Below the pieces are notes generated by a model. It searched no databases. It was not told where the DNA came from and saw only the letters and a list, made by a program, of their open reading frames with translations. From a virus (Duplodnaviria > Caudoviricetes), in the IMG/VR virus record IMGVR_UViG_3300029305_004466: a DNA stretch of 64,000 nt; one strand, 5' to 3'. Shown piece after piece: positions 8,101 to 51,884 of the stretch (position 1 is the first letter of the stretch; every line of letters starts with the position of its first letter). The position numbers and the translations under genes were made by a program.

Positions 8101-8530
8101 GAGGATATTCTTCAGGGTTTGCAACATAAGTAGGCTTATAGATTTCAAGATACATGGTTAATGATTCTTTTAACTCATCGCTATCCTGTAATAAGTCACC
8201 GGAAGTCTTTTTAATCTCTGTCGGAGTTGTTGTTGTTTTCAGAATAACCGTATCAGAGATTTGACTAATCTGGTTCAGAATCTTAGCCTGATACTCTTCT
8301 GGGGACATATTATCAGCATCTACATTAATTGTAGTGTCTGGCTTTGGATAAGCAATATCCCAGTTCTTTTTCTGTAAAACGAATGATGGAAGCAGAGTAT
8401 TACCGTTTACATCTTTGACTTCGTTTGAGCACACACCAATGGATAAAACCTTAGCGAGCTCTTTTACTATGTCCTTAGTAGAACAAAGACCTTCGTGATA
8501 TCTATACGCCTTGTATTTCTGTTCAGACAT
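5174..8530 (-). CDS. Large virion structural protein with possible C-terminal Ig/InlB-like repeat
   Basis: 1118 aa; C-terminus VNHGEDYVASVKPDNGWEIDSV...NKVTQDANISVSF resembles a beta-sandwich repeat; structural context. Confidence 0.55.
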   Translation of the reverse strand: MSEQKYKAYRYHEGLCSTKDIVKELAKVLSIGVCSNEVKDVNGNTLLPSFVLQKKNWDIAYPKPDTTINVDADNMSPEEYQAKILNQISQISDTVILKTTTTPTEIKKTSGDLLQDSDELKESLTMYLEIYKPTYVANPEEYPLDCEKEGVIPKVITKDMYQDALSVTKRVEEIITLPGNGCCTISTSDEINKQTIKYTSMAQFRLMISKVIAIYGENAEKEGFYAPTIPGAATADLVFDKTQILEIKAKDNELYSAIREALNVDDNQFQNFTTLKFQAVYEDDTSFIFSVEAITSKDVYTVSGTYVVKEADANDNIITKIVPEYYIEGVYIPLDKSLWSYDPNVLNNRGILFSTITGDIVKNGHIVIRYDVEKSATSDVSERTYMLNNHYLLMRLYDDLNEEGNGPSVTTYNDKGEVVVQRAHVSDWCKLSWYQDFEEIYQDEIDADVSINAVSDGTLLVPLQTAGLNGETKVRYWINTNNDRFNLIVMGNPSLDYSRERHLVSACYCGKIDSFDFSINDTAGNFALFVSSSTEPCKSELTREKNYSTIDFVGTNYASPEFNTFLQSAYSIRCLDNTTEYYVKLPEGRFYNKELWPKYIILDGNNLPITELKTVYKINYVEENQAVITIHQAYDSNYTLYIGYPYYEEKIVLTSGVERDMFGNVIDVKKTDTYGLNTSDGTTSVMMYHTQSKAYYQKHHMMFTTTEEYMSKVMYGKSMYTNEYYADRIKITHGNDGPRGMLNDMLVIDSASLFPFDELVINKDFEKEPEEYEETYVYFPISAPYSPLSDSPNARYGVAIKKNEIEPDYSDEQKIVAIAIDELKLLADESWWGISNNIYPLAKTSNGSTVLWDIVDNSKWSVTETNKTDYSPISLCVVSTGLTGDENTPLVGEEIDASALTPVASFIGSKLASKVNFDVTAFTANTTSNKIYYGVVPEIPTINNDAVIRVRMTPPNNEGVYATDDYFYGVEGVPYCGEITAESGTQELRLENARPGYKFIVYEVQENEDQALIKRFATCDITRDLIKYPCEVRIGITTGSGILNTVPITIVNHGEDYVASVKPDNGWEIDSVEIVFADGSINKITKEGLTQDGDNYIITLNKVTQDANISVSFTSEAL

Positions 8531-14651: not shown

Positions 14652-16505
14652 TTATGAACCATCAATGTATATGGTAGCGTTCATTTTACATTTCAGATAA
14701 TTCGTAATGGAATCTCCGAATAAGTTAACTCTAATTGTAACCATGTCACTAACACTACCTTTTGATGTTGAATATATATTGACACCAGTTAAGTCATCAT
14801 GTATATTCTGACAAAGTTTTACGGAGTTCTTGATAAGCATTTCATCAACGACTTTGATTAAGGATTCGTCTTCGATTTTTGCTTTTACTGTATACGAAAT
14901 GTCTTTAATATGTTTTGCTACTATACTTTCAACATTGGATTGTAATATTTGTTGTCTATTAGTATAACAATTTATTACATATTTGTCCATTTCATCATTG
15001 ATTTTATTTACATTATCTTTTATGAGACCGATAATAGCATTGTAATTATCTTTTCCTGAGGATGAAGACTTCTTAGTAGGAGTACGTCCTCCAGAATTTT
15101 TCTCTTTGTTGTTTGTTTCTTTACTTCCTGTACCGCCATTAGCTGAAGCAGTAGCTTTAGCCGTCTGCACATCAAGTTCAGCTTGAAGTTTAAGTGTTTC
15201 TCTCGTAATGAGTTCAACAAATAATTTCTCTCTGTCACCATCAGCAATAGGGTCCATACCAAGTAAGTCACGCATTTCATCTTCAGTAATCGCATTGTGT
15301 TCATATTTATAAATGGCGTGAACTTCTTTCTTGATTTTAACATCTACGTCATTATCGTGGAATTTAAGTTCAGCGATTTGGTCTGGATTAAGTACTGGGT
15401 CATATCCGCCTTCCATTAAGATTTCTTTTACTATGAATGAGTTAAAGAACATCTCAATGATTTTGGTAATAGCACGGATTCTGTCAGCCATTTCTGATGT
15501 CATATTGTCACCAGTAGAACGATTGGCTGTATCACCACGACCCCACATAATAGCAGGAATGCCCATACCAGAGAATACTCTATCTTCCATATACCTTAAA
15601 TATGGTTCTGCGTCAATAACTTTATCAGAAGCAATAGGAGTTATTGTAACTCTTTCTGTAGTAACAATACCACCTTCAACATCCATATTGTTGATTTCTT
15701 CGATAATCTTATCCACTTCCGCTTCCGTACCCGGCTGGTCCTCTGTACCAACTTTTACATGATGGAATGGATAAATATTACGATACATCATTTTAAGAAC
15801 GTTTTCTTCTGCTTGTCTTAATGCTCGTATATCATCAAGGACTGGCACTAAGAAACTTGTTCCGTATGCATTACCTTTTGGTCTTTTGTAATAGAAATGG
15901 ATTACATCTTCAGGATTAAATTCCTGTTCACCTGCATCTGTTTCCTGTTTCCACTTACTAATAACGCCATGCTCATCTCTCATTACAGTCATTGTAGAAG
16001 GATTAGCACAGAAATAACCTACAACAGGTTCTTTTCCTGCAAGCCCTTGAACATTAACACCTTGAGGTAATAAGTTAACGTCATTACTTCTTGACTTAAC
16101 AATCATACAGTTTCCGTATTTAACTAAGTCTTCCGCAATATCCATTAAGAATTGATTTGTCGGAGTACTTGTCGCTTCTGCTATGTATTCAAGCCTAAGC
16201 TTTAAATAGTCAACTGTATTAGTGTCTTTCCCGTAAAAACTATACCCTTCTTTAAAAATCTGGTCAACATATTTATCAACACCTTGACGTACATAAGAAT
16301 CTGTATCGTAGGCATTTTGTATGTCTTCCATATTAAAATCTGGTTCTTCAAAGTCTGTATCATCAGTAGTCTTATAAACAAGCTGTTTAATAAACTCTGA
16401 TGCTAATTCTCTTTGTCCCCCAGAAGAAGCGTCCTTAGAAACAGGTGCTGCGGGAAGGAGTTCTTTGAAAAATGTATTGGCTATGAACCGTTTGATTTTA
16501 TTCAT
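14652..16505 (-). CDS. Portal protein
   Basis: 617 aa; DLVKYGNC, FNPEDVIHF...YGTS, ITEDEMRDLLGMDP; lies between terminase and protease. Confidence 0.85.
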   Translation of the reverse strand: MNKIKRFIANTFFKELLPAAPVSKDASSGGQRELASEFIKQLVYKTTDDTDFEEPDFNMEDIQNAYDTDSYVRQGVDKYVDQIFKEGYSFYGKDTNTVDYLKLRLEYIAEATSTPTNQFLMDIAEDLVKYGNCMIVKSRSNDVNLLPQGVNVQGLAGKEPVVGYFCANPSTMTVMRDEHGVISKWKQETDAGEQEFNPEDVIHFYYKRPKGNAYGTSFLVPVLDDIRALRQAEENVLKMMYRNIYPFHHVKVGTEDQPGTEAEVDKIIEEINNMDVEGGIVTTERVTITPIASDKVIDAEPYLRYMEDRVFSGMGIPAIMWGRGDTANRSTGDNMTSEMADRIRAITKIIEMFFNSFIVKEILMEGGYDPVLNPDQIAELKFHDNDVDVKIKKEVHAIYKYEHNAITEDEMRDLLGMDPIADGDREKLFVELITRETLKLQAELDVQTAKATASANGGTGSKETNNKEKNSGGRTPTKKSSSSGKDNYNAIIGLIKDNVNKINDEMDKYVINCYTNRQQILQSNVESIVAKHIKDISYTVKAKIEDESLIKVVDEMLIKNSVKLCQNIHDDLTGVNIYSTSKGSVSDMVTIRVNLFGDSITNYLKCKMNATIYIDGS

Positions 16506-16556: not shown

Positions 16557-17585
16557 TTAAGTGTAGCTAATTGTAGCATAAACCTTTCTTAACTGTTGTT
16601 TTTCTGCCATTAATTTTTCCATAGAATTCACAAAAAAGGAATTCCCCATCAATGTTTTATTTATATTTTCAATTGAGTTGTCTGTTTCTTTTTCAAAAAA
16701 AGATATTTTAGATAATAAGTAACTTCCTTCTCTAGAGGTTTCTGATACTGTATTATAGAATTCATTTAAGTCTTTTCGTTTAATATAGTAATTATATAAC
16801 GCTTTTCTCGTAGTATCAATACTTTGTTGCATATCATATGAATTACTTCTTGCGTTTATTTCGTCATCTACCTCCAAAAAGAGACGTTGTATCATAGGAG
16901 TTAATATTGGATTATTCACACCATTTTCATCTCTTAAATATGCAACTTGCTCTAATTTAGTACATGCTTCATCTATTTTTACGCTATATGTATTTATGGA
17001 TTTATTCAATACTGAATCAACGGATAATGCTAAATAGTTAATGCCTTTTCCCTGCTTTTCTTTTTCTACAAGCACGGCAGTCATTTCAGCATCTTTTTGC
17101 TTGCATTCTTCGTTTGTAATATTTGAAGTACCATAGTATAAAATTTTTAAAGTATCGCTAATAATATTTATTCTCTCTTTTTCGTTTTCCAGTAATTCGA
17201 TAATTTCTGGGATTTGGCTTTTGCCAATATTTGCTTTATGTGCGTTAAGAAATTCTTTAGCATATTCATTATTTTTTGCTCTTAACGCATTTACAAAAGA
17301 GTTAATATTTGAATATGTATCATGTGTTTCATTATCGAACTCTTTGCATAATCTGTCAATCATTTCGTTTATGATGTCGATATTTTCATTTAAGTTTTCC
17401 AGTACAGCATTAGGTAAATTATTTAAAAAACTTTTTAGTGTAGTTGAATAACTAGCCTTATTAATGTATTGATTGATATTAATAGGCTCTGTTTGTTCAA
17501 CTGGCTTATTGAATTTTTCGTATTTAAGATTGGGACGGTATCCTATGACCGCCCCAGAATCTATTAATTGTTCTTTGATTTCCAT
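16557..17585 (-). CDS. Hypothetical protein (helical)
   Basis: 342-aa ORF coupled to the terminase stop codon. Confidence 0.55.
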   Translation of the reverse strand: MEIKEQLIDSGAVIGYRPNLKYEKFNKPVEQTEPININQYINKASYSTTLKSFLNNLPNAVLENLNENIDIINEMIDRLCKEFDNETHDTYSNINSFVNALRAKNNEYAKEFLNAHKANIGKSQIPEIIELLENEKERINIISDTLKILYYGTSNITNEECKQKDAEMTAVLVEKEKQGKGINYLALSVDSVLNKSINTYSVKIDEACTKLEQVAYLRDENGVNNPILTPMIQRLFLEVDDEINARSNSYDMQQSIDTTRKALYNYYIKRKDLNEFYNTVSETSREGSYLLSKISFFEKETDNSIENINKTLMGNSFFVNSMEKLMAEKQQLRKVYATISYT

Positions 17586-19489
17586 TAAAAAGACCTCCTC
17601 TGGAATGATGGAACTCTTTTATTTTGCCTTCGAACTGGAGTAATACTGATAATACCTTCTTTTTCGGAAGTTTTAATTATCTTTACAAAAGGCTCTTCTT
17701 GGTTTTCACCAATTTCACGGCTCTTAACATGCTCATCTCTTGAATCCAGAGTTCCAATAAATACTGTTTTGATAGAATAAACTTGCTTTAATAAGCTACC
17801 ATACTTTTGCTCAAATAGCAATAGGGCAAGATTCATGGCATCAATTGCGTGTTCATTCTCATCTGTATAGACAGGCATACCAGTACTACTTATGGATTTT
17901 ACTCTATATTCTTCTAATTGAGAAATCATTGATTTATCTGAAGGGTCAAGAATAACTTTACCTTTTTCAAATAAATTAACTGAGTTGTTAACCATGAATG
18001 GCTTAAGGTGTTTCTGGTCTTTTTTCTTAGTATATGGGTCACGAACTTCAATCTTTTGAGAGAATTGATAACCAATAACCTTATCTGCTAAGCCAGTTTC
18101 AGGATGTTCCATACCATATTTATGAAGCATTTCTAATTGTACTTCACCGTAACCACGGTCAATACCTATCCAATCAAACTGGTATTCATCATTCAGTTCT
18201 ATGATTTTGTTCATTGCATTGACGTAAGTAAAATCAGAACGTGGAACTTCTATTCTGAATAACATCTTAAACATAGGAACAATGCGTCCTTCATGGTCTT
18301 GATGGAATCTATCAAGTTCCATGCATACCATATTTGTTGCTGCTGAATATTTATCCCAGTCAACTCCAAGTATTCTAATATTTTGCCCATGCGTTCTTGT
18401 AAGATAAGATTTCCTATCTTCTTTGGACCATTTAGTAATGTATCTATATTTAAGGCGTTCACCTTCCATAATAGCTGCATTGATGAATTTCTTCTGGTAT
18501 ACACCCATTTCTTCTTCACCGAATTCAGCCATAACTTCTTGAGTATATCTCATGTCAGATAATTCATCTCTAATATCTTCAAGATAAGTTTGTTGAGTAT
18601 CTGGATTTATCTTTAATAATTCTTTATTAACGTTGGATGGAGCATATACTTCTGTCCAACCATTACCTTCGCCAATCGCTTTTTCTTCTACTTGATAACC
18701 ACTGAAGCGATTATTTTTAATATCTTCTGCTGTTGGGAAATATCTCTTAGAGGCATTAATACACCAACGGTAATATTCTTCGTGCTTACCAGATGGCGTG
18801 GAAGCACAGATAAGTCTAATACGTTCTGGAGCTTCATTTCTAATATTTAAGATATTCGTAATCTGATTAGAACCTATGTAGTCGCACTCGTCAAGGATAA
18901 GTAAATCTGCTCTTTGACCACGAGTAGAGTTAGCACCGCCAGATGAGTTGTTAGCACCTGCGGTTAAACCTAAAATATTAGAAACAATACCATTAATAGT
19001 AAGGTTTAAATTATGATGTACGTCTCTTGTTATTAATGACTTTAACACCGGAGACATCTCAATCAACTGGTGTAAACGCTTGAAGATTAAGTCAATCTGC
19101 GTTTCATATGGAGTTGCTATAATAATATCGTATTGGTTATTCGGACCTCTATTATATTGTGTGTACGCAAACCATAAAATAAGTACACACATAGAGTCTG
19201 ATTTACCAAGTCTTCGTCCAAGTCTTAATACAAGCTTTTTAGAACGCTTACCTTCTTGGATAATTACATCTTGATAATCTCTAGCTTCCCAGTCAAGATA
19301 AACTTTAGCCCATAATACAGGGTTGTTTGTAATTGTATATTCCAACGCTTCTTTGAAATTTAACCCGTATTGCTTTTGAACAAAATCTACCTTTTTGACT
19401 ATATTCTTATCTAAAGGAATCAAAAGATTCATTATCTGATTGCATTCTATATCATTTAATTGTCCTATTGTTTGTGCTACAGCTGCCAT
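17585..19489 (-). CDS. terL: Terminase large subunit
   Basis: Walker A LGRRLGKS, Walker B LLILDE, ASTP coupling motif, nuclease LGVDW and HAIDA. Confidence 0.92.
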   Translation of the reverse strand: MAAVAQTIGQLNDIECNQIMNLLIPLDKNIVKKVDFVQKQYGLNFKEALEYTITNNPVLWAKVYLDWEARDYQDVIIQEGKRSKKLVLRLGRRLGKSDSMCVLILWFAYTQYNRGPNNQYDIIIATPYETQIDLIFKRLHQLIEMSPVLKSLITRDVHHNLNLTINGIVSNILGLTAGANNSSGGANSTRGQRADLLILDECDYIGSNQITNILNIRNEAPERIRLICASTPSGKHEEYYRWCINASKRYFPTAEDIKNNRFSGYQVEEKAIGEGNGWTEVYAPSNVNKELLKINPDTQQTYLEDIRDELSDMRYTQEVMAEFGEEEMGVYQKKFINAAIMEGERLKYRYITKWSKEDRKSYLTRTHGQNIRILGVDWDKYSAATNMVCMELDRFHQDHEGRIVPMFKMLFRIEVPRSDFTYVNAMNKIIELNDEYQFDWIGIDRGYGEVQLEMLHKYGMEHPETGLADKVIGYQFSQKIEVRDPYTKKKDQKHLKPFMVNNSVNLFEKGKVILDPSDKSMISQLEEYRVKSISSTGMPVYTDENEHAIDAMNLALLLFEQKYGSLLKQVYSIKTVFIGTLDSRDEHVKSREIGENQEEPFVKIIKTSEKEGIISITPVRRQNKRVPSFQRRSF

Positions 19490-24733: not shown

Positions 24734-25003
24734 TTATATTAACCCCACCCTCTTTAATATTTCAAACTTTACGCCTTCATCCTTTAATAACGCCATCTTG
24801 TCTTTTCTGATGTATTTATTTGGAACGAATACGTTAAACCTGCGTTCCGCTGGCGTTAATGATTGCGTAGCAATCTTAATTGCTTCAGGATGAGCAAGAT
24901 ATACGTTTATTGCTCTTAAATTTTGCAATTTTTTGTATTCGCCATGGGCGAATGCTTTTAATTCCTCAAGATTTTCATTGAAATATATGCCATTGCTGCT
25001 CAT
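24734..25003 (-). CDS. Hypothetical protein
   Basis: Start trimmed to MSSNGIY (GAGGTG RBS); first gene of the leftward arm. Confidence 0.5.
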   Translation of the reverse strand: MSSNGIYFNENLEELKAFAHGEYKKLQNLRAINVYLAHPEAIKIATQSLTPAERRFNVFVPNKYIRKDKMALLKDEGVKFEILKRVGLI

Positions 25004-25207
25004 ATTTACCACCTCTAACACCATTGTAGCACATATTGGGGAAAATTGCAACATTTTGTTACAGCCGTATAGGGTATTTTTATATATATATTTTTGGGGG
25101 GACTTGGTTTAATATTATGAACTTTGATTCGAAGTTCGGAACCCCACCCTATTTTGAATGGGCAGGGTGAAACAACAAAATCTTATATTATGAAAGGAGT
25201 CATTATT

Positions 25208-25750
25208 ATGGCAAACAACATCACAGGTAGTATTATTATTACCAACAAGACAGCAGAACTCACAGAAGAGGAAAGAATGGAATGTCTTAAAAAGGCAATG
25301 GATAGAATTACATTCCTCGAAGGCGTTGACAAAACATGGAAGGACTATGAACATGATATGCGTATGCTCAAGGCTATTGAAGATGGTGAGTTAGAGCCAG
25401 AATTTATTGCTCTTCTCACATTATCTAATAGTGAAAGAGAGCACGTAGAGAAGAACATGGAATACTACAGAATAGGTAGTGGCTTACATGACGCTCTATA
25501 TGTTAATCCTATCCCAACTGTAGAGTCTAGTCTTAGCAACGAAGAAACAGAAAGATTCGTAGCTATGCTTGAGGCTGAAGAAGAGTCATATCCATGGGAT
25601 GATGATTGGTATGAACAGTGGAGGGATGAACAAGCGGCATTACCAGACTATGGCTGTATTGACATTGATTGGGATGCCATGGATAAAGTAGTTGAAGAAC
25701 TTGACCTCATATATGCTGATTATATTGACAAGGAATTACCGTTCAATTAA
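25208..25750 (+). CDS. Acidic hypothetical early protein
   Basis: Start MANNIT after GAAAGGAG; very D/E-rich C-terminus ending ELPFN. Confidence 0.6.
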   Translation: MANNITGSIIITNKTAELTEEERMECLKKAMDRITFLEGVDKTWKDYEHDMRMLKAIEDGELEPEFIALLTLSNSEREHVEKNMEYYRIGSGLHDALYVNPIPTVESSLSNEETERFVAMLEAEEESYPWDDDWYEQWRDEQAALPDYGCIDIDWDAMDKVVEELDLIYADYIDKELPFN

Positions 25751-25812
25751 TTAGCCTACAGCTCCCTAGTATACGGAGCTATATAAATAGTATACTACTA
25801 CCCCTATATACC

Positions 25813-25865
25813 CCCGTCTACATGGTATGAGTCCATGTACTGATGATGGCATGAGCCGAAACGGG
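25813..25865 (+). ncRNA. Hammerhead ribozyme (type III) #1
   Basis: CCCGUC^ / stem I UACAUGG-UAUGAGU-CCAUGUA / CUGAUGA / U-GGC-AUGA-GCC / GAAA-CGGG; full catalytic core; predicted cut after 25818. Confidence 0.88.
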
Positions 25866-25924
25866 ATTATCAGTAAACTACTACATATATGTACCCGTTG
25901 CATAACAAAGGAAAGGAGTTCACT

Positions 25925-26248
25925 ATGATGAACACAAATTTAATTAATTTCGCAACTAATAAGGCTATCAATGACCATGATGGTAGAAAAGATGAATTAG
26001 CTGGTGTATGTTTACTTGCTAATGGCTTACTCGGAGCTATCCCTGCTACAAATAAGGCGTTCAGTATCAATGAATTGTATGTGGGTAAAGATGGCATGGC
26101 ACACATTAGTACCAATTCTATCAGTGGTACAGTAATGCCTTGGAATGACCTTACTACAAAAGAGGGTATCAAGGAATTTAATGATACCCTTACATTTGAT
26201 TCTAATAAGATAGTAAAGGTTATCTTCATTAAGGTTGTAGAAGCTTAA
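25925..26248 (+). CDS. Hypothetical early protein between two hammerheads
   Basis: Start MMNTNL after GGAAAGGAG. Confidence 0.6.
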   Translation: MMNTNLINFATNKAINDHDGRKDELAGVCLLANGLLGAIPATNKAFSINELYVGKDGMAHISTNSISGTVMPWNDLTTKEGIKEFNDTLTFDSNKIVKVIFIKVVEA

Positions 26249-26281
26249 AGCTTATGGTCCTGAGCATGACCTTAAAAGGCT

Positions 26282-26338
26282 CCCGTCTATATAGGGTAGT
26301 GCCTATATACTGATGATGGCAGCTATAGCCGAAACGGG
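26282..26338 (+). ncRNA. Hammerhead ribozyme (type III) #2
   Basis: CCCGUC^ / UAUAUAGG-GUAGUG-CCUAUAUA / CUGAUGA / U-GGC-AGCUAUA-GCC / GAAA-CGGG; stem I covaries with copy #1; predicted cut after 26287. Confidence 0.88.
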
Positions 26339-26407
26339 ATTATCAGCTAACCTAACAAAAATACATATAACGTATACCCGTTATACGAAAAGAAAGGAGA
26401 TAGTATT

Positions 26408-26686
26408 ATGAGCTATCAGACAAACAATCAGGAAATCAAGGAAATGAGACACATCAGCTACAAGATTCAGAGTGCTGAAAGAAGAAAACAGAGAATTTAC
26501 AATGCCATCTGTACCGTATTAGGGTACATTGGTATGGCTATATTCTCTATAGTAACGGCTCTTTTCTTCATGTATGCATGGATTGAGGAAGACAGAAGAT
26601 GGAATCCACCTGTTCTCGATACGATTGATTATGTTAATCCATATGAGACACCTGATGAGGAACCTTGGTATGTACCAGAAGCATAA
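26408..26686 (+). CDS. Small membrane protein
   Basis: Single hydrophobic segment AICTVLGYIGMAIFSIVTALFFMYAW; strong RBS. Confidence 0.6.
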   Translation: MSYQTNNQEIKEMRHISYKIQSAERRKQRIYNAICTVLGYIGMAIFSIVTALFFMYAWIEEDRRWNPPVLDTIDYVNPYETPDEEPWYVPEA

Positions 26687-26702
26687 GAAAGGAGGAAATA
26701 TT

Positions 26703-27131
26703 ATGAGAAAATACGATAACTATATCAATGAAATGGAATATACCTATATAAGCGGTTACAGAGTATTTTTATCCGAACATTCTATTCAGCGTATTAATGA
26801 AAGAATGTACTCAAGACAGGATGCTATTGAGGACACAATTTGCGACATTGTTAAGGTTATTAGTAATGAATTCATGTATAAGTATTTGTCTTATAACATG
26901 GGAAATCGTAATAACTATGAGAATGTTGATGTACTGGTATTTGATGTTCCGAATAATAAGGTATATGCTCTTAGGCTTAAGCCATTTAAGAAGCACATCA
27001 TCCTTAAAACAGTTGGTAATAGCAAAACAAGCGAGTGGCTATATGCTAATAAAAGACAGAGAATGTGTTGGATTTATCCAGATGCATTTAAGTTTAGTAC
27101 TGCAAATGGCAACATTACATGGTGTAAATAA
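26703..27131 (+). CDS. Hypothetical protein
   Basis: Start MRKYD after AAGGAGG; contains SEHSIQRINER. Confidence 0.55.
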   Translation: MRKYDNYINEMEYTYISGYRVFLSEHSIQRINERMYSRQDAIEDTICDIVKVISNEFMYKYLSYNMGNRNNYENVDVLVFDVPNNKVYALRLKPFKKHIILKTVGNSKTSEWLYANKRQRMCWIYPDAFKFSTANGNITWCK

Positions 27132-27138
27132 AGGAGGA

Positions 27139-27726
27139 ATGATTATGAAGATTAAGAATTTATTCTATGGTTTAGTAGGTATGATTGCATATTATAAATA
27201 TGCTATGGAAAACAAGGTTGATGTTAAGGCAACAAAAGAAAACAAAGTAGATACAATAAATGTTAACGGTAAAGAAGTAAACATTCACTGTATTCCTGAC
27301 ATAAATAAATATGGTATCTATTATTGTGCAGTTGTTATTGTTCCATTTAATACTTTTATTGCAGTAGATGAGTACTTCTATGCATTCCCTGAAAAAGTAC
27401 AGCAGGCAATGATTTATCATGAAGCTGGGCATTACGCACATGGTCACTACAACAAAGGAATAAAGTATATGTGGAATGTGTATGTAGAATTAGGCAAGAT
27501 TAAACTCACTAAAAAGAACACTAATCTATTACAGGAGCTTACTTTATTAACCAGAGATATTAGAGATGAGTTTGAAGCAGACAAATATTCTATGGACAAT
27601 GTAGGTTCTGAAGCGGCAATTCAAATGTTATACATGCTCAATGAGTTAATATGCGTGAAAATGGGATATGAAACTACAGAGTATGTTGACAGATATAACA
27701 ACTTAATGAAAGGAGGTGAATTCTAA
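27139..27726 (+). CDS. Zinc metallopeptidase-like protein (HExxH)
   Basis: AMIYHEAGHY...EFEADKY zincin motif; start trimmed to the AAGGAGG RBS. Confidence 0.7.
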   Translation: MIMKIKNLFYGLVGMIAYYKYAMENKVDVKATKENKVDTINVNGKEVNIHCIPDINKYGIYYCAVVIVPFNTFIAVDEYFYAFPEKVQQAMIYHEAGHYAHGHYNKGIKYMWNVYVELGKIKLTKKNTNLLQELTLLTRDIRDEFEADKYSMDNVGSEAAIQMLYMLNELICVKMGYETTEYVDRYNNLMKGGEF

Positions 27727-28121
27727 TGATTAAGACAACAGATAAGAACTTTGAGTACAGTAATGCAAGATACTTCGGTAGCTACCGAAGAACAGGGCAG
27801 CCTTACAATCCATATAAGGCTCGTGAAGAAGCTAAGAAGAAGGAGGGTAAATATGGTTTCAGAAAATACTAAAGACCGAATCATTGAGTGTGATGCCAGA
27901 ATCAAAGCGTTGGAAGACTTAAAGACCAGATGCAACAATCCAGATGGTATTCAGATGCTTATTGATGACATGAAGGCACGAAAAGAAAAGCTGATTAAAG
28001 AATAATACATACTTGATATTCTATCCGTTATTTATTATCGGCTTTAAAAAAAATTTTCTCTTTGAAAGGAGGTGATGCTAGTGTGGCTCTGTATGACACA
28101 CCCAGAAGGGAGGTGAATACA

Positions 28122-29843: not shown

Positions 29844-30119
29844 TCAGTAACTATTAACTAGGGCTTTTGGGTGGTTGGATGGGCGAAAGGATGGGTATCC
29901 GGTACAAATGATAACCATTACTAATGACAAAAGGATAAGTATTGACTTCTAAGTTGACACCAATGGAATTGCTTGAAATTCCGGGGGATGGTTGTCGTTT
30001 AACTATCTCAGGAAATGATAATTCCCTGAGCAAGGGCTATTATCTTTTCTGAGTGTGAGGTGTTCTCTCAGGCGAAGGAGAGACTGGCTTTTTAATTTAT
30101 GAAAGGAAGGAAAACTATT

Positions 30120-38873: not shown

Positions 38874-39025
38874 TAATTACCTTCGCTCCCATTCGGGAGC
38901 TTAATAGTAGTCATAATAGACTATTCCTTTCCTTCAACCCATGTACACTTTCGCAACAGCATGGGTTGTTGACAGTTCTGGCAGGCAGCTTCGCTGCCTG
39001 CCTTTTTTTATAAAGATTACCGGAG

Positions 39026-40843: not shown

Positions 40844-40901
40844 GTCATATTGCCCCATTCGGGGCATTAATAGAAATATTACATGAGAAAGGAGTATAAT
40901 C

Positions 40902-41901: not shown

Positions 41902-41962
41902 ATAACGCCCCGTTCGGGGCGTTTATAGTAGTTGTTATTTTTATAGAAAGGAGAGATACTCT

Positions 41963-42424: not shown

Positions 42425-42569
42425 CAACTAACGGCTCCCGTTCGGGAGCCTAATAGTAACTTTAAGTGCTCCCATTCGGGAGCTTAGTAGAAAATCAAAA
42501 CACTTTATTTTTGTGGGCTAACCCTTCCACAATAAATAACTAGGGTACGCATAAGGAGGCGTAATAATT

Positions 42570-45213: not shown

Positions 45214-45291
45214 TTCTTAAGCCCCTTCGGGGCTTTAATAGTATTTTTATTTTCTTTTAGTCCCTTCGGGACTTTAATAGTATTTTGGGTG

Positions 45292-45336: not shown

Positions 45337-46004
45337 TACATATTGTATGTTAAGAAACATACATGAATAACCATGTGCATAAGATATCTAATCAATATCG
45401 TCATGGATAAGCCGTATGATAGAGAGAATCATGTGACTGATAGGTTGCATAGATGCTCCTTGTATTAGTAGTAATGTTAATACAGAAGAGGGGAACCCCT
45501 CAACATCAAGGTTTAGTGTATGTTTATACTGTTTGTTAGTGCAGAATGCTTTTGGCAGGAGCAATAGACGCTTACCCGAAAGGTAAGAAGAATCCATTAA
45601 AGCGGTAGCCTGAGAAACTATCACACCTAATGGAACTCTCAAACAATCCTGTTTGTCGTGAATGGAAGAAATTCCAGTATAACAAAAGCATCGCTGGTAG
45701 TAGCCCAAGACAATAAAAGATTTTATTTAATGAAAAAGTGAATCATATAAATAAAAACATTCTGAATGATGGGTGAGGCTTGGAGGTATCAGTCCTCTAT
45801 GAGTTTAAGGTTATAGCTAAGTATGACGAGTATGAGATGCCCTTCGAGGAGCATGTGATACCGCATGGCTGGTTGGCTAGGGTAAGAAGCTTACAGATGA
45901 CGATTTGTAGGTTCAGACTTATTCTCTCATTCGCATAATAAGCATAAGGTATAAACAATAGGATGAAGGTCCATTCTTGTATGTTTCTTAGGGTACAATA
46001 TGTA
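45337..46004 (+). ncRNA. Large ornate structured RNA (~670 nt; ROOL/GOLLD-like candidate)
   Basis: No credible ORF. 5' TACATATTGTA and TAAGAAACATACA (45337-45363) pair perfectly with 3' TGTATGTTTCTTA and TACAATATGTA (45978-46004). Follows a promoter and precedes the tRNA cluster. Confidence 0.7.
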
Positions 46005-46156: not shown

Positions 46157-46228
<72 letters not shown>

Positions 46229-46543
46229 TTATCCTCTTAGTAACTTTGCAGAGTTATCTAAGAAAAAGACATAATTAAAGTCTTAGTAAAGTCCTGCAAG
46301 ACTGAAAAGACAATGACAACAACCTTGTGTCTTAGTGGTTCTAATTTGGTTGTAGATGTCAAAGGATTCTGTATCATGATGTGCTGACCTACCAATTTGT
46401 AGGGCTATGATGAGAAGTCTATAGTGGGACTCCTTCTCCAAGTCAGGCTATGTGCAGATGGTAAAAGAGTTGAACCTCACCTAACAGTTGCAGTTTGGCA
46501 GTTTGAATGGCAGCAGGGTGTTAATTAAGAAAAAACTGTCAAT

Positions 46544-46615
46544 GGCTCCTTGGTCAAGTGGTTAAGACATCGCCCTTTCACGGCGGTAACGCTGGTTCAA
46601 ACCCAGTAGGAGTCA
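46544..46615 (+). tRNA. tRNA-Glu(TTC)
   Basis: Cloverleaf; TCGCC-CT TTC AC-GGCGG. Confidence 0.92.
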
Positions 46616-46730
46616 TTTGGAGAAGAGGTAGGTAAGGTGGCAGGGATGGTTCCCATTGTGTTAGCAGTCGGTCAGAACGCTTTGACGGCAGTACCGCAGC
46701 TTAAAAATCAGTTTAGCTTCTCCAATACAT

Positions 46731-46804
46731 AGCGGGGTGGAGCAGTCCGGAAGCTCGTCAGGCTCATAACCTGAAGGTCGCAAGTTCAAATCTTGCCCCC
46801 GCCT
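46731..46804 (+). tRNA. tRNA-Met(CAT), initiator-like
   Basis: Cloverleaf; unpaired 1:72 (A-C); TCAGG-CT CAT AA-CCTGA. Confidence 0.88.
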
Positions 46805-46881
46805 CTGTAAGTTAATCCATTGACTTACACCTCACCTTATACCGCAGGCGTTCTTTGTAGCTTTCTCCTGCGGTATATAAT

Positions 46882-46967
46882 GGTAAGATGTCCGAGTGGC
46901 TTAAGGAGCTGGTCTTGAAAACCAGTGATGCGTAACTGCACCGTGAGTTCGAATCTCACTCTTACCG
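46882..46967 (+). tRNA. tRNA-Ser(TGA)
   Basis: Cloverleaf with long variable arm; CTGGT-CT TGA AA-ACCAG. Confidence 0.92.
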
Positions 46968-47182
46968 TTCTAAGTTCGAAAGGTCTTAGTTAAAAAACCT
47001 TAAACGTAAGGATTACAGAGGGCTATGGGTTGACGACCATAGAGCTTACGTTGTGAGAAAACCACAGGTGGCTAATCTGCTTTGTTCTATTAGCATGGAA
47101 AAATAGGAGAGTTAATTGAGCAATTTGTCTCACACAATATTGCTTAGGGCGGCAACCTCATGTCAAAGAAATAGCCAAACAC

Positions 47183-47268
47183 GGAGATTTACTCAAGTGG
47201 TTGAAGAGGAGGACTTGCTAAGTCTTTAGTATCGTAAGGTAGCGAAGGTTCGAATCCTTCAATCTCCG
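47183..47268 (+). tRNA. tRNA-Ser(GCT)
   Basis: Cloverleaf with long variable arm; AGGAC-TT GCT AA-GTCTT. Confidence 0.9.
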
Positions 47269-47514
47269 CTGAGCTGAGGTGCTAGAACTCAACTCTATGT
47301 AATAGACACACCTGTAAAAGATGTTTTGAGATTTAAGACTTCTTTTTGAAAGAAGCCACTGAATCAAAGTACATATCTACCTTGACCAGCTAGGTACGAC
47401 ATCAGTAGGAGGAAGTTACATAGATATGTTGGCAGTACGAAGAACTGTCTGCTTGGAAAATGAAGAATGATGGTCATTCCCGTTTCTACCATTTCTGTAC
47501 GTTAACAGAATTAA

Positions 47515-47588
47515 CGAGATGTAGGTCAGCTTGGTAGACCGCTTGATTTGGGTTCAAGAAGTCGCACGTTCGAATCGTGTCATCTCGA
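47515..47588 (+). tRNA. tRNA-Pro(TGG)
   Basis: Cloverleaf; CTTGA-TT TGG GT-TCAAG. Confidence 0.9.
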
Positions 47589-47664
47589 CTAGCCAGAACA
47601 GAAGACATTTCGAGTTCGGCAAGAAAAAACTACATAGTCTTCATTAAGAAAGGAGGAATGGTAT

Positions 47665-47868
47665 ATGATTATTATTGTTGGCGGATTGCTGTGTTGTATG
47701 CTGTTCTTCCTTGAAGAACGTGTAGGCACAATTACTATTATGAATGGAGTGCCAGAGATTAGTCTAACAGCGGTTAAGTGGCTTTTGAGGTTTAGTCACA
47801 TAAATTCTAACTACTGGCATCCTGAGCCCAGAGTGCTCACGACAGCTTTTGTAGGCGGATTTATATGA
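47665..47868 (+). CDS. Small hydrophobic protein
   Basis: AAGGAGG RBS; 67 aa inside the tRNA island. Confidence 0.4.
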   Translation: MIIIVGGLLCCMLFFLEERVGTITIMNGVPEISLTAVKWLLRFSHINSNYWHPEPRVLTTAFVGGFI

Positions 47869-48182
47869 ATAATGACCTCAAAGAAACCTACTACATTGTT
47901 GAAGTGAGCGTTTAATTATAGAATATAGAATATAAACTAAATTAACAGTCAACACCGACATTATGGCAGTGTCACAGTGAAGAAGGAAAACTTATAAAAC
48001 CCGTTAAGATATTAATCCCCACATATGATAAATTAGGGATTGTTCACTTAAATGGTTAGAAAGAAAGAATAAAATATGTTGACAAAGAGAGACGGCTTAA
48101 TGCCATTAAGCCATAGAACGAATAGAATGAATATTATGTAAACCGCCCCGGTCCCGGTTATGATGTCGGGGCGGTATTTTTT

Positions 48183-48294
48183 GGGACGATAGTTTAATTG
48201 GAAAAATACTGGCATTAGCAATAGCCCGGGATTGCTAGAGACGGAGTTGGAACACCGTATCACCAGAGACAGGAGTTCAATTCTCCGAGTCCCA
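48183..48294 (+). ncRNA. tRNA-like RNA with anticodon loop replaced by two hairpins
   Basis: GGGAC/GTCCC acceptor stem, D-arm, GGAG-TTCAATT-CTCC T-arm; CTGG/CCAG stem encloses ~50 nt. Confidence 0.65.
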
Positions 48295-48610
48295 CTTTCT
48301 CTTTCTGGGTTCCTGAATAGGAGTAGGCACTCATAATGCTTAGAATTCCTTTGTAAGAGAATATTAAAACTTCCATTATTGATACTGAGTATATTGTAAA
48401 CCTTGTTAATTGATGGACGAGGAGCAATTGTTATCTTTATCAATACAAAACCGATTTGATTCGGATAGGTAAATTGCCGAGGCAAGGTAAGTTATTAGTT
48501 TTGGTAGTCTAATAATAAAGAAGATGTGCTAAGAACAAGGATGGCGGTTGCATGATTAGCCATGGACAATGATTATGCAATGAGGCAGCAAATCGGTCTT
48601 AGCGACCTAT

Positions 48611-48684
48611 GGACCTTTAGCTCAGTTGGTTAGAGCGTCCGGCTCATAACCGGATGGTCGTAGGTTCGAGCCCTACAAGGTCCA
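48611..48684 (+). tRNA. tRNA-Ile2/Met(CAT)
   Basis: GGACCTTTAGCTCAGTTGGTTAGAGC...CT CAT AA...; body resembles Firmicute lysidine tRNA-Ile2. Confidence 0.88.
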
Positions 48685-48890
48685 CTATACCGAGGGATGG
48701 TAGACTGATATAACAGTGGATGACAGCAAAGTTTCGTCTGTCGAAGGGATAGGGGCAATACATGTTACCGCCTATCGTGTAGGTATAATATTACAAAGTG
48801 TATTCGAATGAGTATTCTGTTTAACGGAAGAAAGTCAATCTTAAATGTGAAATATCTATTGACGAGGATATAGTAACAGCTTTGTACTGT

Positions 48891-48960
48891 AGGACATTAG
48901 CTTAATGGTAAAGCACACGACTGATAATCGTGGTCAGCAGTTCGATTCTGTTATGTTCTA
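48891..48960 (+). tRNA. tRNA-Ile(GAT)
   Basis: CACGA-CT GAT AA-TCGTG; short variable loop. Confidence 0.8.
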
Positions 48961-49108
48961 TTCGGTGAAAAGCTGATAGATTACTGTCGATAGGGAGGCA
49001 GTTGCCCAGTGAAGGTAGCCGCCAGCTAACGCAGAGTAAATATGAGTATGGAGAACAAGTCCCCTATGATTTGCCATAAGCATACGAAATGGTTAGCTGG
49101 ATTAACCT

Positions 49109-49201
49109 CGGAGAGTAGCTCAGTGGGCAGAGCTTCTTGCTTAGAATGGGTAACTGCAAGTGAAATCCCGTTGGTCATGAGTTCGAATCTCATCTCTCCG
49201 T
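49109..49201 (+). ncRNA. tRNA-like RNA with pseudoknot in place of the anticodon arm
   Basis: CGGAGAG/CTCTCCG acceptor, GCTC/GAGC D-arm, ATGAG-TTCGAAT-CTCAT T-arm; middle CTTGC/GCAAG stem whose loop AATGGG can pair with CCCGTT. Confidence 0.7.
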
Positions 49202-49323
49202 CTTTGTAAAGGTAAGTTATGGATGCATAATACTAGGATGAAAGGACTTAACTTTAAATGTCAATCTTCAAAACAGTAAGCGACAGCCTTTACAAAATTG
49301 TATCTTGAAAGGAACATATTTTT

Positions 49324-49548
49324 ATGAATGTTGCATTTGCATCAAAAATTGCTAATCTTATTAAAACTGGTCATTATTGGTCATATGCACATATTGCTGA
49401 AGAGTTGCATATAAATAAAAACACAGTAGCTCGTATTGGGAAAATTTATAAAGATGCCCGATGGAGCATTTATAGTGTTGACCAATTAGCACAGAAGCAT
49501 CACGTTAGCAAAAATGTTATTCGGGCTATTCGTGGTACTAAAGTCTGA
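49324..49548 (+). CDS. Small tandem-HTH DNA-binding protein
   Basis: SYAHIAEELHINKNTVARI and SVDQLAQKHHVSKNVIRAI. Confidence 0.65.
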   Translation: MNVAFASKIANLIKTGHYWSYAHIAEELHINKNTVARIGKIYKDARWSIYSVDQLAQKHHVSKNVIRAIRGTKV

Positions 49549-49552
49549 AAAA

Positions 49553-49631
49553 GTGACACATAATTATTCACAAAAGGGTGAATAACTAATGTTTATTAGT
49601 TTGAAACGGGTTCAAATCCTGATGTGTCACC
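49553..49631 (+). ncRNA. Degenerate tRNA-like RNA
   Basis: GTGACACA/TGTGTCAC terminal stem and CGGG-TTCAAAT-CCTG T-arm; non-canonical D and anticodon hairpins. Confidence 0.45.
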
Positions 49632-50158
49632 TCAAGGGGCGATATATGAAAAAAGGTTTACTAAATCGCAAAGGGGCGGTTTTACTGCGGTAATAACTTT
49701 AATCATAATCACAGCTCCCGTGGGATAGATGGCTAAGGGATAGCTAAATCCCAATAGCAGGTTCCAATCGCAAGTTGTCCTGCCAAAAACCAAAAGGTTA
49801 TTGTGATAAGTATCATTTGTATGGAAACATACATGTGAGAAAAAACATCAGTGCTTGACATGCCAAAATACAAGCTGAATGAAGGTTGGTAAATGTATAC
49901 GCCAAAATACATAAGAGGTATATAAATATTAAAATAAATTGGATAATATTCATGATAAAACCGATTTAATATGTGAATTAACACAAGCAGTATATGTACC
50001 CGTTTGTCCAGTGAAGAATGAAGTATGTAACAAGTTGCATATACCATTGGATAGATTCAACCTTCAAGGTTGCCGTGAGACAAAAAGTAGGTATTTAGTA
50101 TGCAAAAGATATCAATGGCACGATAAATGAGTGAAATTCTCATCACTGATGTCAACTT

Positions 50159-50266
50159 GGAGAATTAGCTCAGTTGGCTAGAGCCCTACGAGGAGTTTCG
50201 ATTGGGTGAGCAATATGCTCCTAGACACCAGAAGAAACAGCCCCAGTTCGAATCTGGGATTCTCCA
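50159..50266 (+). ncRNA. tRNA-like RNA with expanded anticodon region
   Basis: GGAGAAT/ATTCTCC acceptor, GCTC-AGTTGGCTA-GAGC D-arm, CCCAG-TTCGAAT-CTGGG T-arm; AGGAG/CTCCT stem with loop GGTG able to pair with downstream CACC. Confidence 0.7.
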
Positions 50267-50631
50267 ATATGACGTTTTAGGGTTTGGGCTCTTACGTAGA
50301 GTTGTTGTCAAATACCCTCATCGCTTCTTATCAGGCGGAAAGAAAACGGGACAACAAGTAGAGGGGGCTGATAATCTCTTCGAAAGTACCGAATATCATT
50401 GATTCTAACAATTGCTAATGTTGCATGAAGCGTGTGCTTCTCTAGCTTCCAACTAGGGCTTAGCCGCTTATAGAATCACAAATGAATGAGTGTGGAAAAC
50501 TCAGGTAGGTGTAACCCCTACTATTCGGTTTGGAAGCATATACCCATTGTGCTTCTTGCCATTATGTGTAAGCCTTTTTTCGGCTAAAGAGAAGGAAACT
50601 CTTAAAAACCAAATTATAGCATTATACATCA

Positions 50632-50661
50632 TTGACACATTTTGTTGCAGTGGTGTATAAT
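50632..50661 (+). promoter_or_regulatory. Sigma-A promoter embedded in a long inverted repeat
   Basis: TTGACA-18 bp-TATAAT within TAGCATTATACATCATTG...CAGTGGTGTATAATGCTA. Confidence 0.55.
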
Positions 50662-50971
50662 GCTATTAGTTTTTATGGGAAGGAAACCCTATAATAAACC
50701 GTTAAGAAATTTTCATGTGGATATTTAAAACAAGAGCATGAAGGAGTCGGCATGGTAGCGAAAAAAGCCGAAAGCCTGTCTAATTTCACTTAAATGAAAG
50801 AAAGAAAAGACGAAAGGAAACCTCTACCAATCCCAGTCTAATATTTTGCAAAGGTATAAACTGAACCTGTTATCTATATATCCTAACATCTATACATTAG
50901 GTTTAAGTCGGGCCTGCATTAAAGTAGTCATTAAGTATAGAAATGTTTAAAACTACTGTATTGGACAACTT

Positions 50972-51102
50972 GCCGGAATATGCAAGCGGGTTGCAAGCAG
51001 CTATTTTTTAATAGTGAGTGAAACACATGAGTATAACTTGTGCTGTGACTGTCCTATGTGGGAGTAGGACATTAAAAGGGAGTTCGAATCTTCTATCCGG
51101 CA
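50972..51102 (+). ncRNA. tRNA(Leu-body)-like RNA with giant variable region
   Basis: GCCGGA/TCCGGC acceptor and GGGAG-TTCGAAT-CTTCT T-arm; no 7-nt anticodon loop; two extra hairpins. Confidence 0.6.
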
Positions 51103-51136
51103 CTTACATAATCTTATGGAAAGGAGAAAAATCACT

Positions 51137-51856: not shown

Positions 51857-51884
51857 TTACATAGCAGGTCTATGACCTGCAAAT

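What the first reader, a model, noticed from the sequence alone, without database searches (positions are those of the whole stretch)
25813..26345. Two type III hammerhead ribozymes bracket a single early gene
Seen: two complete hammerhead cores with covarying stem I, each followed by GATTATCAG and later a TACCCGTT that could sequester the AACGGG strand of stem III. Inference: self-cleavage at 25818 and 26287 would cut the first rightward transcript into monocistronic pieces, excising a ~470-nt RNA carrying ORF 25925 that could in principle circularise.
Basis: partly seen in the sequence, partly recalled or inferred. Interest (0 to 1): 0.7.

Follow-up and report, generated by a model that had tools for sequence, protein, structure and literature searches.

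The report
Two hammerhead ribozymes flanking phage gene
Two self-cutting hammerhead RNA motifs do flank a small gene at the start of the rightward operon of a roughly 210-kb gut phage and most likely cut the transcript into separate messages, a layout known in phages since 2011, with no support for an RNA circle.

Summary
Two complete type III hammerheads lie on the + strand. They would cut after C25818 and C26287. A strict core pattern hits only these two sites in 64 kb, with none expected by chance. With a homologue in a related 208-kb phage, 7 of 16 base pairs change compensatorily. Rfam scores are below threshold (about 23 bits against a cut-off of 48.5).

Each ribozyme begins a paralogous leader of about 110 nt. 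GAUUAUCAG is the reverse complement of the catalytic core CUGAUGA(U). This box recurs behind type III hammerheads of at least five other phage contigs. [quoted passage not shown]

Best reading: the ribozymes cut the early transcript between genes A, B and C. Each downstream message keeps a structured 5'-OH leader, much like the synthetic RiboJ insulator.

Nothing supports circularisation. A natural strain lacks gene A and the first hammerhead, and relatives carry one hammerhead or none.

Clustered hammerheads flanking phage genes were described by Perreault et al. in 2011. This scan has noted them on many other genomes. This is a new member of a known kind. No RNA data were available.

The parts
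25208..25750 (+). Gene A: 180 aa, unknown function. It is the first rightward gene after the strand switch.
   Evidence: ORF with an AAAGGAG ribosome-binding site. No Pfam or PHROG match. Absent, together with HH1, from a natural strain variant.
25760..25794 (+). Hairpin AGCUCC/GGAGCU followed by AUAUAAAUAGUAUAC, lying in the 3' UTR of gene A.
   Evidence: Sequence and fold. It resembles the recurrent hairpin + TAATAGTA element seen further downstream in the window.
25813..25865 (+). Hammerhead 1 (type III). The predicted cut is between C25818 and U25819.
   Evidence: Complete core and three helices. 89.4 bits with the custom model. Rfam Hammerhead_3 gives 22.8 bits, below threshold. Loop I (UAUGAGU) and loop II (AUGA) fit a populated phage class.
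25866..25873 (+). Anti-core box 1, AUUAUCAG. It is complementary to CUGAUGAU (25840-25847).
   Evidence: 8 pairs including one G-U. This helix has 0.87-0.94 probability in two of three modelled 3' product lengths and 0.53 in the third. Homologous boxes occur in other phages.
25888..25904 (+). Leader hairpin 1. Stem UAUGU/GCAUA; loop ACCCGUU, complementary to AACGGG (25860-25865).
   Evidence: The stem covaries with hairpin 2. A strain variant changes U25892 to C, turning the U-G pair into C-G.
25925..26248 (+). Gene B: 107 aa, member of a conserved small-protein family of unknown function.
   Evidence: Homologues at 74-85% identity. 72 representative clusters found with a profile. No Pfam match. 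Confident model (pLDDT 91.8) with no clear PDB match.
26281..26339 (+). Hammerhead 2 (type III). The predicted cut is between C26287 and U26288.
   Evidence: Complete core and three helices. 76.3 bits with the custom model. Unchanged in a strain about 1.6% divergent.
26339..26346 (+). Anti-core box 2, AUUAUCAG. It is complementary to CUGAUGAU (26310-26317).
26371..26387 (+). Leader hairpin 2. Stem CGUAU/AUACG; loop ACCCGUU.
   Evidence: A strain variant (A26370 to T, plus deletion of 26371) keeps five pairs.
26408..26686 (+). Gene C: 92 aa, predicted membrane segment, unknown function.
   Evidence: ORF with ribosome-binding site. Weak match to phrog_21405.

Best explanation
The window is part of an uncultured tailed phage of about 210 kb from animal gut.

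Shown from sequence: two type III hammerhead motifs lie in the first two intergenic spaces of its rightward block of small genes.

Inferred mechanism:
1. Each ribozyme folds as it is transcribed and cuts itself after the GUC site. This separates the messages of genes A, B and C.
2. The upstream piece ends in a 2',3'-cyclic phosphate, behind a hairpin.
3. The downstream piece starts with a 5'-hydroxyl that is base-paired at the foot of stem I.

Each ribozyme is the first part of a conserved leader of about 110 nt that belongs to the gene after it. The order is hammerhead, anti-core box AUUAUCAG, small hairpin with loop ACCCGUU, Shine-Dalgarno sequence, start codon.

I infer that once the short stem III has come apart, the box pairs with the used catalytic core. 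This locks the product into a stack of hairpins at the 5' end. That stack would fix the leader structure, shield the 5' end from exonucleases, and leave the ribosome site free. The synthetic RiboJ insulator (hammerhead plus hairpin) works this way. The ACCCGUU loop may hold the freed stem III strand.

The pair of ribozymes is not a unit: each acts at its own gene junction.
For: Motif:
- Core, cut site and the three helices are complete.
- Compensatory changes support stems I and III.
- The custom model finds only these two in the window, at 89 and 76 bits; the next hit scores 19. It finds one homologue in a relative (80.5 bits).
- An extra residue between A9 and G10.1 is a known natural variant. 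A U at that place raised the cleavage rate 3-4 fold in the CChMVd hammerhead (PMC3705267).
- HH1's loops (UANNAGU with ANGA) match a class of 14 among 91 parsed phage hammerheads in which the two loops co-occur.

Context:
- Both lie in intergenic spaces, in the same sense as the genes, just before a ribosome-binding site.
- Many IMG/VR phage hammerheads sit the same way. Contigs with 2-5 hammerheads 0.3-2 kb apart are frequent.
- Such clusters cleaved in vitro, and one of them (A. tumefaciens) also in vivo (PMC3088659).

Leader module:
- The two leaders align from stem III to the start codon. Changes concentrate in stem I, in the loops and in the hairpin stem.
- The box-core helix is among the most probable pairings in most modelled 3' products.
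- UCAUCAG or a near copy follows stem III in G001, twice in L182, and in L238, L102 and L003.
- In a set retrieved without regard to the box, 2 of 75 hammerheads carry the perfect 7-mer, against about 0.05 expected. None was found in control windows.
- Strain variants keep the leader hairpins paired.
- RiboJ raises mRNA and protein levels (PMC6206723).
Against: - There is no RNA evidence at all; no RNA run is listed for this phage.
- Rfam scores are far below the curated thresholds.
- Nearest-neighbour folding puts the active fold 2-3 kcal/mol above competing folds once the downstream sequence is present. Stem III probability falls to about 0 in the long uncleaved constructs. Cleavage may therefore be partial or conditional, although these models ignore hammerhead tertiary contacts.
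- The ACCCGUU element is not general: 0 of 82 other phage hammerheads have an equivalent.
- The anti-core box is a minority feature.
- The promoters of this phage are unknown, so it is not shown that genes A, B and C share one transcript.
Confidence: 0.62

Rival explanations
1. Conditional or attenuated ribozymes. The anti-core box and the ACCCGUU decoy hairpin hold most transcripts in an uncleaved, inactive fold. Cleavage happens only in a short co-transcriptional window, or when a factor (protein, ribosome traffic or temperature) frees the core. The ratio of polycistronic to processed RNA would then be tuned.
For: - Both competitor elements are conserved between the two leaders.
- The anti-stem III pairing has 0.86-0.93 probability in long uncleaved HH1 constructs.
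- The three folds lie within about 3 kcal/mol of each other for HH1 and within about 6 for HH2.
- Synthetic 'anti-ribozyme' switches use the same principle (title and abstract of PMC12033390 only, listed).
- Perreault et al. raise regulated cleavage for phage hammerheads.
Against: - The box always lies 3' of stem III, on the product that becomes the next message. It was never found in the upstream control windows. That position fits a role after cleavage.
- The decoy is absent from all 82 other phage hammerheads examined and from the homologue in G001.
- The energy model omits loop-loop tertiary contacts, which favour the active fold.
Confidence: 0.2
2. Excision and circularisation. The 469-nt RNA between the two cuts (5'-OH at U25819, cyclic phosphate at C26287) is joined into a circular message for gene B. 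The joining would be done by the reverse hammerhead reaction or by an RtcB-type ligase.
For: - The two hammerheads share an identical stem III while stem I differs. The 3' end of the excised RNA could therefore rebuild a full hammerhead with the 5' end, with a 6-pair stem III.
- The same pattern (two copies, same stem III, different stem I) occurs in L182.
- The ends have the right chemistry for RtcB.
Against: - A natural strain lacks HH1 and gene A but keeps gene B and HH2.
- G001 has a single hammerhead and G002 none.
- In other multi-hammerhead contigs the stem III sequences differ between copies, for example L117 and L008.
- Perreault et al. searched for circular or spliced products from such clusters and detected none.
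- No RNA data exist here.
Confidence: 0.07
3. The motifs are inactive relics or chance look-alikes and do not cleave.
For: Rfam scores are below gathering thresholds. There is an extra U in the core strand. Stem II is short, with 3 pairs.
Against: - Zero matches expected by chance.
- Compensatory changes maintain the helices across about 60-65% protein-identity distance.
- No substitution in either motif in the strain variants; the one indel, in the C run at the 5' edge of HH1, still leaves three C to pair.
- The extra U is a known active variant and recurs in other phage hammerheads.
Confidence: 0.06

Closest known systems
Clustered hammerhead ribozymes flanking single genes or short gene blocks in prophages (Perreault et al. 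2011, PLoS Comput Biol, PMC3088659)
   Same: - Several co-oriented hammerheads lie in intergenic spaces of phage DNA and flank genes of varied and mostly unknown function.
- The proposed role is processing of long phage transcripts into gene-length mRNAs.
- Circular products were considered there too.
   Different: - Here the carrier is an uncultured jumbo phage of about 210 kb rather than a prophage.
- The two copies carry a shared 3' leader (anti-core box plus decoy hairpin), which I did not find in the passages of that paper that I searched.
- Activity is untested here.
Type III hammerhead ribozyme family (Rfam RF00008)
   Same: - Core CUGAUGA ... GAAA and a GUC cut site.
- Stems I and II are closed by loops and stem III is open.
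- Loop pairs fit a populated phage class.
   Different: - One extra U lies between A9 and G10.1.
- Stem II has 3 pairs.
- The helices are AT-rich.
- Scores are about 23 bits against the curated 48.5.
RiboJ synthetic insulator (sTRSV hammerhead plus a 23-nt hairpin before the RBS; described in PMC6206723)
   Same: - The order of parts: type III hammerhead, then a hairpin, then the ribosome-binding site.
- Cleavage removes whatever lies upstream and leaves a standard structured 5' leader. In RiboJ this raises mRNA and protein levels.
   Different: - This is a natural element.
- It has an added box complementary to the catalytic core.
- The hairpin loop is complementary to the stem III strand.
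- No expression data exist.
CChMVd (+) hammerhead with an extra residue between A9 and G10.1 (De la Pena and Flores 2001, as summarised in PMC3705267)
   Same: An additional nucleotide occupies the same core position. In that ribozyme, a U there raised the trans-cleaving rate 3-4 fold.
   Different: That is a viroid ribozyme acting in rolling-circle replication, not in a DNA phage mRNA.

Membership tests
Hammerhead ribozyme, type III | Conserved core C3 U4 G5 A6 N7 G8 A9 and G12 A13 A14 | tested here: met
   CUGAUGA at 25840-46 and 26310-16. GAAA at 25858-61 and 26331-34.
Hammerhead ribozyme, type III | A15.1-U16.1 pair, with an H17 residue at the cut site | tested here: met
   U25817-A25861 with C25818. 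U26286-A26334 with C26287.
Hammerhead ribozyme, type III | Three helices around the core, with stems I and II closed by loops and stem III open | tested here: met
   The minimum-energy and centroid folds of both minimal motifs have this shape.
Hammerhead ribozyme, type III | Standard pairs next to the core (1.1-2.1 and 10.1-11.1) | tested here: met
   U-A closes stem I. G-C closes stem II if U25847 and U26317 are read as an insertion after A9. That insertion is a known natural variant.
Hammerhead ribozyme, type III | Helices supported by compensatory changes among homologues | tested here: met
   7 of 16 pairs have changes on both sides and 97.9% of cells are paired. None of 500 shuffles reaches this. 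Only three sequences were compared.
Hammerhead ribozyme, type III | Score at or above Rfam's gathering threshold for RF00008 | tested here: not met
   HH1 scores 22.8 bits against 48.5. HH2 matches only partly, to RF02276, at 24 bits against 37. This is a curated score, not a biochemical property.
Hammerhead ribozyme, type III | Loop I-loop II tertiary contact, needed for fast cleavage at cellular Mg2+ | tested here: inconclusive
   HH1 (UAUGAGU with AUGA) fits a class in which UANNAGU co-occurs with ANGA in at least 12 of 14 cases. HH2 could form a 4-pair GUAG/CUAU contact, seen in the sequence only.
Hammerhead ribozyme, type III | Self-cleavage that yields a 2',3'-cyclic phosphate and a 5'-OH | not testable with these tools
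   No RNA run holds the stretch. An in vitro transcription assay is needed.
Clustered phage hammerheads flanking genes (Perreault 2011) | Two or more co-oriented hammerheads within a few kb, in intergenic spaces of phage DNA | tested here: met
   Phage identity: portal and large terminase. The two motifs are 470 nt apart, on either side of gene B.
Hammerhead-bounded circular RNA (viroid-like or retrozyme-like) | Ends of the excised unit can rebuild one hammerhead across the junction | tested here: met
   Stem III is identical in both copies, so the 26281-26287 strand can pair with 25861-25866. This is in silico only.
Hammerhead-bounded circular RNA (viroid-like or retrozyme-like) | A circular molecule is detected, or the unit is conserved as a pair | tested here: not met
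   No RNA data. The pair is not conserved: one strain lacks HH1, G001 has one hammerhead and G002 has none.

The most novel reading that the evidence does not exclude
A subset of phage type III hammerheads carries a built-in 'anti-ribozyme': a box directly 3' of stem III that is the reverse complement of the catalytic core (UCAUCAG, here AUUAUCAG). In this phage a second decoy, a hairpin loop, mimics the substrate strand of stem III. Together they would form a natural conformational switch. It would either shut the ribozyme off after one cut and build a protective 5' cap-like structure on the message, or gate cleavage. I did not find this feature described in the papers searched.
Probability: 0.25. 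Interest if true: 0.55.

Novelty: new member of a known kind. Interest (0 to 1): 0.3.

Why it matters
The biological role of bacterial and phage hammerheads is still called largely elusive (review PMC6765202).

This locus adds a clean, testable case. It has two ribozymes at the head of an early-looking operon of a jumbo gut phage. A conserved leader behind each suggests what happens after the cut. A natural strain lacking one of the two offers a ready comparison.

If the anti-core box proves functional, it would explain how a spent ribozyme is turned into a stable, standard 5' leader. It would also supply a natural design for ribozyme insulators.

The bracketing layout itself is ordinary.

Tried and rejected
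- Rfam at gathering thresholds lists no hammerhead in the window. With permissive filters over the whole window, none appears either.
- blastn of 24800-27800 against 50,697 phage records gave no match.
- Pfam and PHROGs on genes A-E and neighbours gave nothing usable.
- Loci scans with gene A and gene B proteins in IMG/VR found no relatives. The scan of JGI metagenomes with the gene B alignment also found none.
- No whole genome is held for this window.
- No RNA holder is listed among the public runs, so cleavage ends and back-junctions could not be looked for.
- Test for a general anti-stem III decoy behind phage hammerheads: 0 of 82. I rejected it as a family feature.
- The extra U and the anti-core box do not go together in the unbiased set: 5 extra-U candidates, none with the box.
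- Most hits of the box-containing pattern scan were not type III hammerheads by my parser.
- Gene B gave no features hit in the protein Atlas, no Foldseek PDB match at E <= 0.001, and a best VIA-align Z of 3.1. Its alignments were too diverged for loci scans. It was not found in the five related phage records.
- The flanking proteins of the G001 hammerhead show no similarity to the window's 410-aa ORF.
- The consensus scan calls leader hairpin 2 a terminator on the minus strand. I set this aside because no leftward gene lies nearby and hairpin 1 has no T run.
- Sigma-70-like promoter matches were no more frequent than in shuffles.

Full report
**What is there**

On the + strand there are two complete type III hammerhead motifs.

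- HH1: stem III CCCGU/ACGGG (25813-17 with 25861-65), a GUC site with the cut after C25818, stem I of 7 pairs (25819-25 with 25833-39, loop UAUGAGU), core CUGAUGA (25840-46), one extra U (25847), stem II GGC/GCC with loop AUGA, then GAAA.
- HH2: the same plan, with a 6-pair stem III (26281-86 with 26334-39), the cut after C26287, stem I of 8 pairs (loop GUAGUG), and stem II with loop AGCUAUA.

A strict core pattern matches these two sites and nothing else in 64 kb, with none in 100 shuffles. Each minimal motif folds into the hammerhead as minimum-energy and centroid structure.

Rfam does not report them at its thresholds. Permissive search gives Hammerhead_3 at 22.8 bits for HH1 (threshold 48.5) and a partial type II match of 24 bits for HH2. 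The AT-rich helices, the 3-pair stem II and the extra U probably account for the low scores.

**What the carrier is**

The window belongs to a tailed phage. Portal (14652-16505, minus strand) and large terminase (17585-19489, minus strand) have clear PHROG matches. A ROOL RNA and a tRNA array lie downstream. Earlier notes of this scan describe the genome as about 210 kb.

Near-identical DNA occurs in animal faecal and bovine gut metagenomes. Leftward virion genes end near 25.05 kb. Rightward small genes with AAAGGAG ribosome sites begin at 25208.

The order of parts is:
- gene A (25208-25750)
- HH1
- gene B (25925-26248)
- HH2
- gene C (26408-26686)
- further small genes

None has a named family. 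That these are early genes is inferred from their position only.

**Are the ribozymes real**

A related 208-kb phage (G001, portal 64% identical) has one homologous hammerhead at a different intergenic site. It has stem III UGCUGU/ACAGCA, stem I GUAGCGG/CCGUUAC, the same stem II and loop, and UU instead of U after A9.

- On the three sequences, 97.9% of cells pair and 7 of 16 pairs change on both sides. None of 500 shuffles reaches this, and slid controls give 27-44% paired.
- A covariance model built from them finds only HH1 (89 bits) and HH2 (76 bits) in the window; the next hit scores 19. It finds one hit in G001 and none in a 213-kb relative.
- An added residue between A9 and G10.1 is a known natural variant. 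A U there raised the rate 3-4 fold in the CChMVd ribozyme (PMC3705267). The same extra U recurs in other phage hammerheads.
- Among 91 phage type III hammerheads parsed from IMG/VR loci, 14 have loop I UANNAGU. At least 12 of these have loop II ANGA. HH1 and the G001 copy fit this pair exactly, which suggests a conserved loop-loop contact.
- Strain variants laid on the stretch show no substitution in either motif. With about 1.6% divergence this is weak evidence.

Cleavage itself is not shown.

**The leader behind each ribozyme**

The two regions align from stem III to the start codon, but not upstream of it. Three elements are identical in both.

1. GAUUAUCAG. AUUAUCAG is the reverse complement of the core plus the extra U (CUGAUGAU): 8 pairs, one of them G-U.
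   - In models of the 3' cleavage product, this helix is among the most probable pairings at most lengths modelled: 0.87-0.94 for HH1 at two of three lengths, 0.92 for the shortest HH2 product, falling to 0.09 for the longest.
   - The G001 copy has GCAUCAG (6 pairs).
   - An unrelated contig, L182, has two hammerheads 1 kb apart. Both have the extra U, the same stem III and a following UCAUCAG. L238, L102 and L003 also carry UCAUCAG.
   - In 75 hammerheads retrieved without regard to this box, 2 carry the perfect 7-mer directly after stem III, against about 0.05 expected. None was found in control windows on either side.
2. ACAUAUA. I have no specific reading for it.
3. UACCCGUU. It forms the 7-nt loop ACCCGUU of a 5-pair hairpin whose stem differs by compensatory changes: UAUGU/GCAUA at 25888-25904, and CGUAU/AUACG at 26371-26387. 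The hairpin ends 5-6 nt before the Shine-Dalgarno sequence.
   - Strain variants keep the pairing: U25892 to C turns a U-G pair into C-G, and a change at 26370-71 leaves five pairs.
   - This decoy is peculiar to this phage: none of 82 other phage hammerheads has an equivalent within 70 nt.

**How it most likely works**

The best-supported reading is the published one for phage hammerhead clusters. Self-cleavage cuts a long transcript between genes (PMC3088659). In that work the clusters cleaved in vitro, and one of them (from A. tumefaciens) also in vivo.

Many IMG/VR hammerheads lie the same way, directly before a ribosome site and often just after a strong hairpin. Contigs with 2-5 copies are common.

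I add an inference. Each ribozyme belongs to the leader of the gene after it. After the cut the 5'-OH nucleotide is paired at the foot of stem I. The spent core pairs with the box and the small hairpin stands before the ribosome site, so the message begins with three stacked hairpins. This is the architecture of the synthetic RiboJ insulator, which raises mRNA and protein levels (PMC6206723).

A hairpin followed by AAATAGTA lies 30 nt upstream of HH1. It resembles a hairpin + TAATAGTA element that recurs downstream in the window. If that element is a terminator or promoter signal, HH1 may trim a short leader rather than separate A from B. Both are forms of processing.

**Rivals**

- Conditional or attenuated cleavage. 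Nearest-neighbour energies place the active, anti-core and anti-stem III folds within about 3 kcal/mol for HH1 and about 6 for HH2. Long uncleaved constructs favour the competitors. The models ignore tertiary contacts, so this is not decisive. I give this rival 0.2.
- The circle. It has one point in its favour: stem III is identical in the two copies, so the ends of the 469-nt piece could rebuild a hammerhead. The same pattern is seen in L182. Several points count against it:
  - A contig from another sample joins 25191 to 25911 through a shared 9-nt ribosome-site sequence. It thus lacks gene A, HH1 and leader 1 while keeping gene B and HH2.
  - G001 has one hammerhead and G002 none.
  - Gene B is absent from the relatives.
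  - Other multi-copy contigs have differing stem III sequences.
  - Perreault et al. looked for circles and found none.
  I give it 0.07.
- Dead relics. This is unlikely given the covariation (0.06).

**Comparison and novelty**

The closest known system is the clustered prophage hammerheads of Perreault et al. 2011. The motifs meet every sequence and structure criterion of type III hammerheads that I could test, except the curated Rfam score. Activity could not be tested.

This scan has already recorded hammerheads bracketing phage genes or RNAs on many other genomes, with the same conclusion. The finding is therefore a new member of a known kind.

The core-complementary box is the one feature I did not find described. 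Two literature searches, a targeted reading of the 2011 paper and a look-up in the scan's own notes showed no precedent. That is a limited search, not proof of novelty.

**Limits**

- The rest of the phage genome was not available.
- There are no RNA data.

Noticed in passing
window 25192-25910: A contig from another gut sample joins 25191 directly to 25911 through a shared 9-nt ribosome-site sequence. That strain therefore lacks gene A, hammerhead 1 and leader 1. Gene B then follows the leader of gene A.
   Followed up: partly
window 49991-50004: A second exact copy of the 14-mer TATATGTACCCGTT, which holds the 5' arm and loop of leader hairpin 1, lies in the tRNA-rich region. No hammerhead is beside it. 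About 0.0005 such matches are expected by chance.
   Followed up: no
window 38885-38909, 40851-40875, 41904-41930, 42433-42458, 45219-45282, 51961-51983; also 25760-25792: A recurrent GC hairpin with a TTCG-type loop is followed directly by TAATAGTA, always on the + strand. A looser copy (hairpin AGCUCC/GGAGCU, then AAATAGTA) lies 30 nt upstream of hammerhead 1. It may be a phage polymerase terminator or promoter signal.
   Followed up: partly
window 25925-26248: Gene B belongs to a family of small proteins with 72 representative clusters and near-invariant H18, N49, D56, S62, G68 and N86. It has no Pfam match. Its AlphaFold model is confident (pLDDT 91.8) and beta-rich, with no clear PDB match (best Z 3.1).
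   Followed up: partly
L182:7375-7445 and 8421-8491 (IMGVR_UViG_3300046778_000118): An unrelated phage contig has two type III hammerheads about 1 kb apart that bracket three small ORFs. Both have the extra U after A9, the same stem III (UAGAGU/ACUCUA), different stems I, and UCAUCAG just after stem III.
   Followed up: partly
IMG/VR loci L040, L117/L015, L028, L039, L061, L065, L079: Phage contigs carry 3-5 type III hammerheads spaced 0.3-2 kb apart. Many lie directly after a strong GC hairpin and directly before a ribosome-binding site.
   Followed up: no
IMG/VR loci, 91 parsed type III hammerheads: Loop I UANNAGU goes with loop II ANGA in at least 12 of 14 cases. This suggests a conserved loop-loop contact class among phage hammerheads.
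   Followed up: partly
window 29844-30098: A 255-nt gene-free stretch after the 410-aa ORF contains G-rich runs and several inverted repeats. It may be a structured RNA. Rfam found nothing there.
   Followed up: no
window 25816-25862: Other contigs in the same gut metagenomes match only this 40-47 nt part of hammerhead 1, with 5-6 differences, and have unrelated flanks. These are similar hammerheads in other contexts or other phages.
   Followed up: no
window 45347-45991 and 46157-55931: A full-length ROOL RNA (305 bits) is followed by an array of at least 12 tRNA genes.
   Followed up: no
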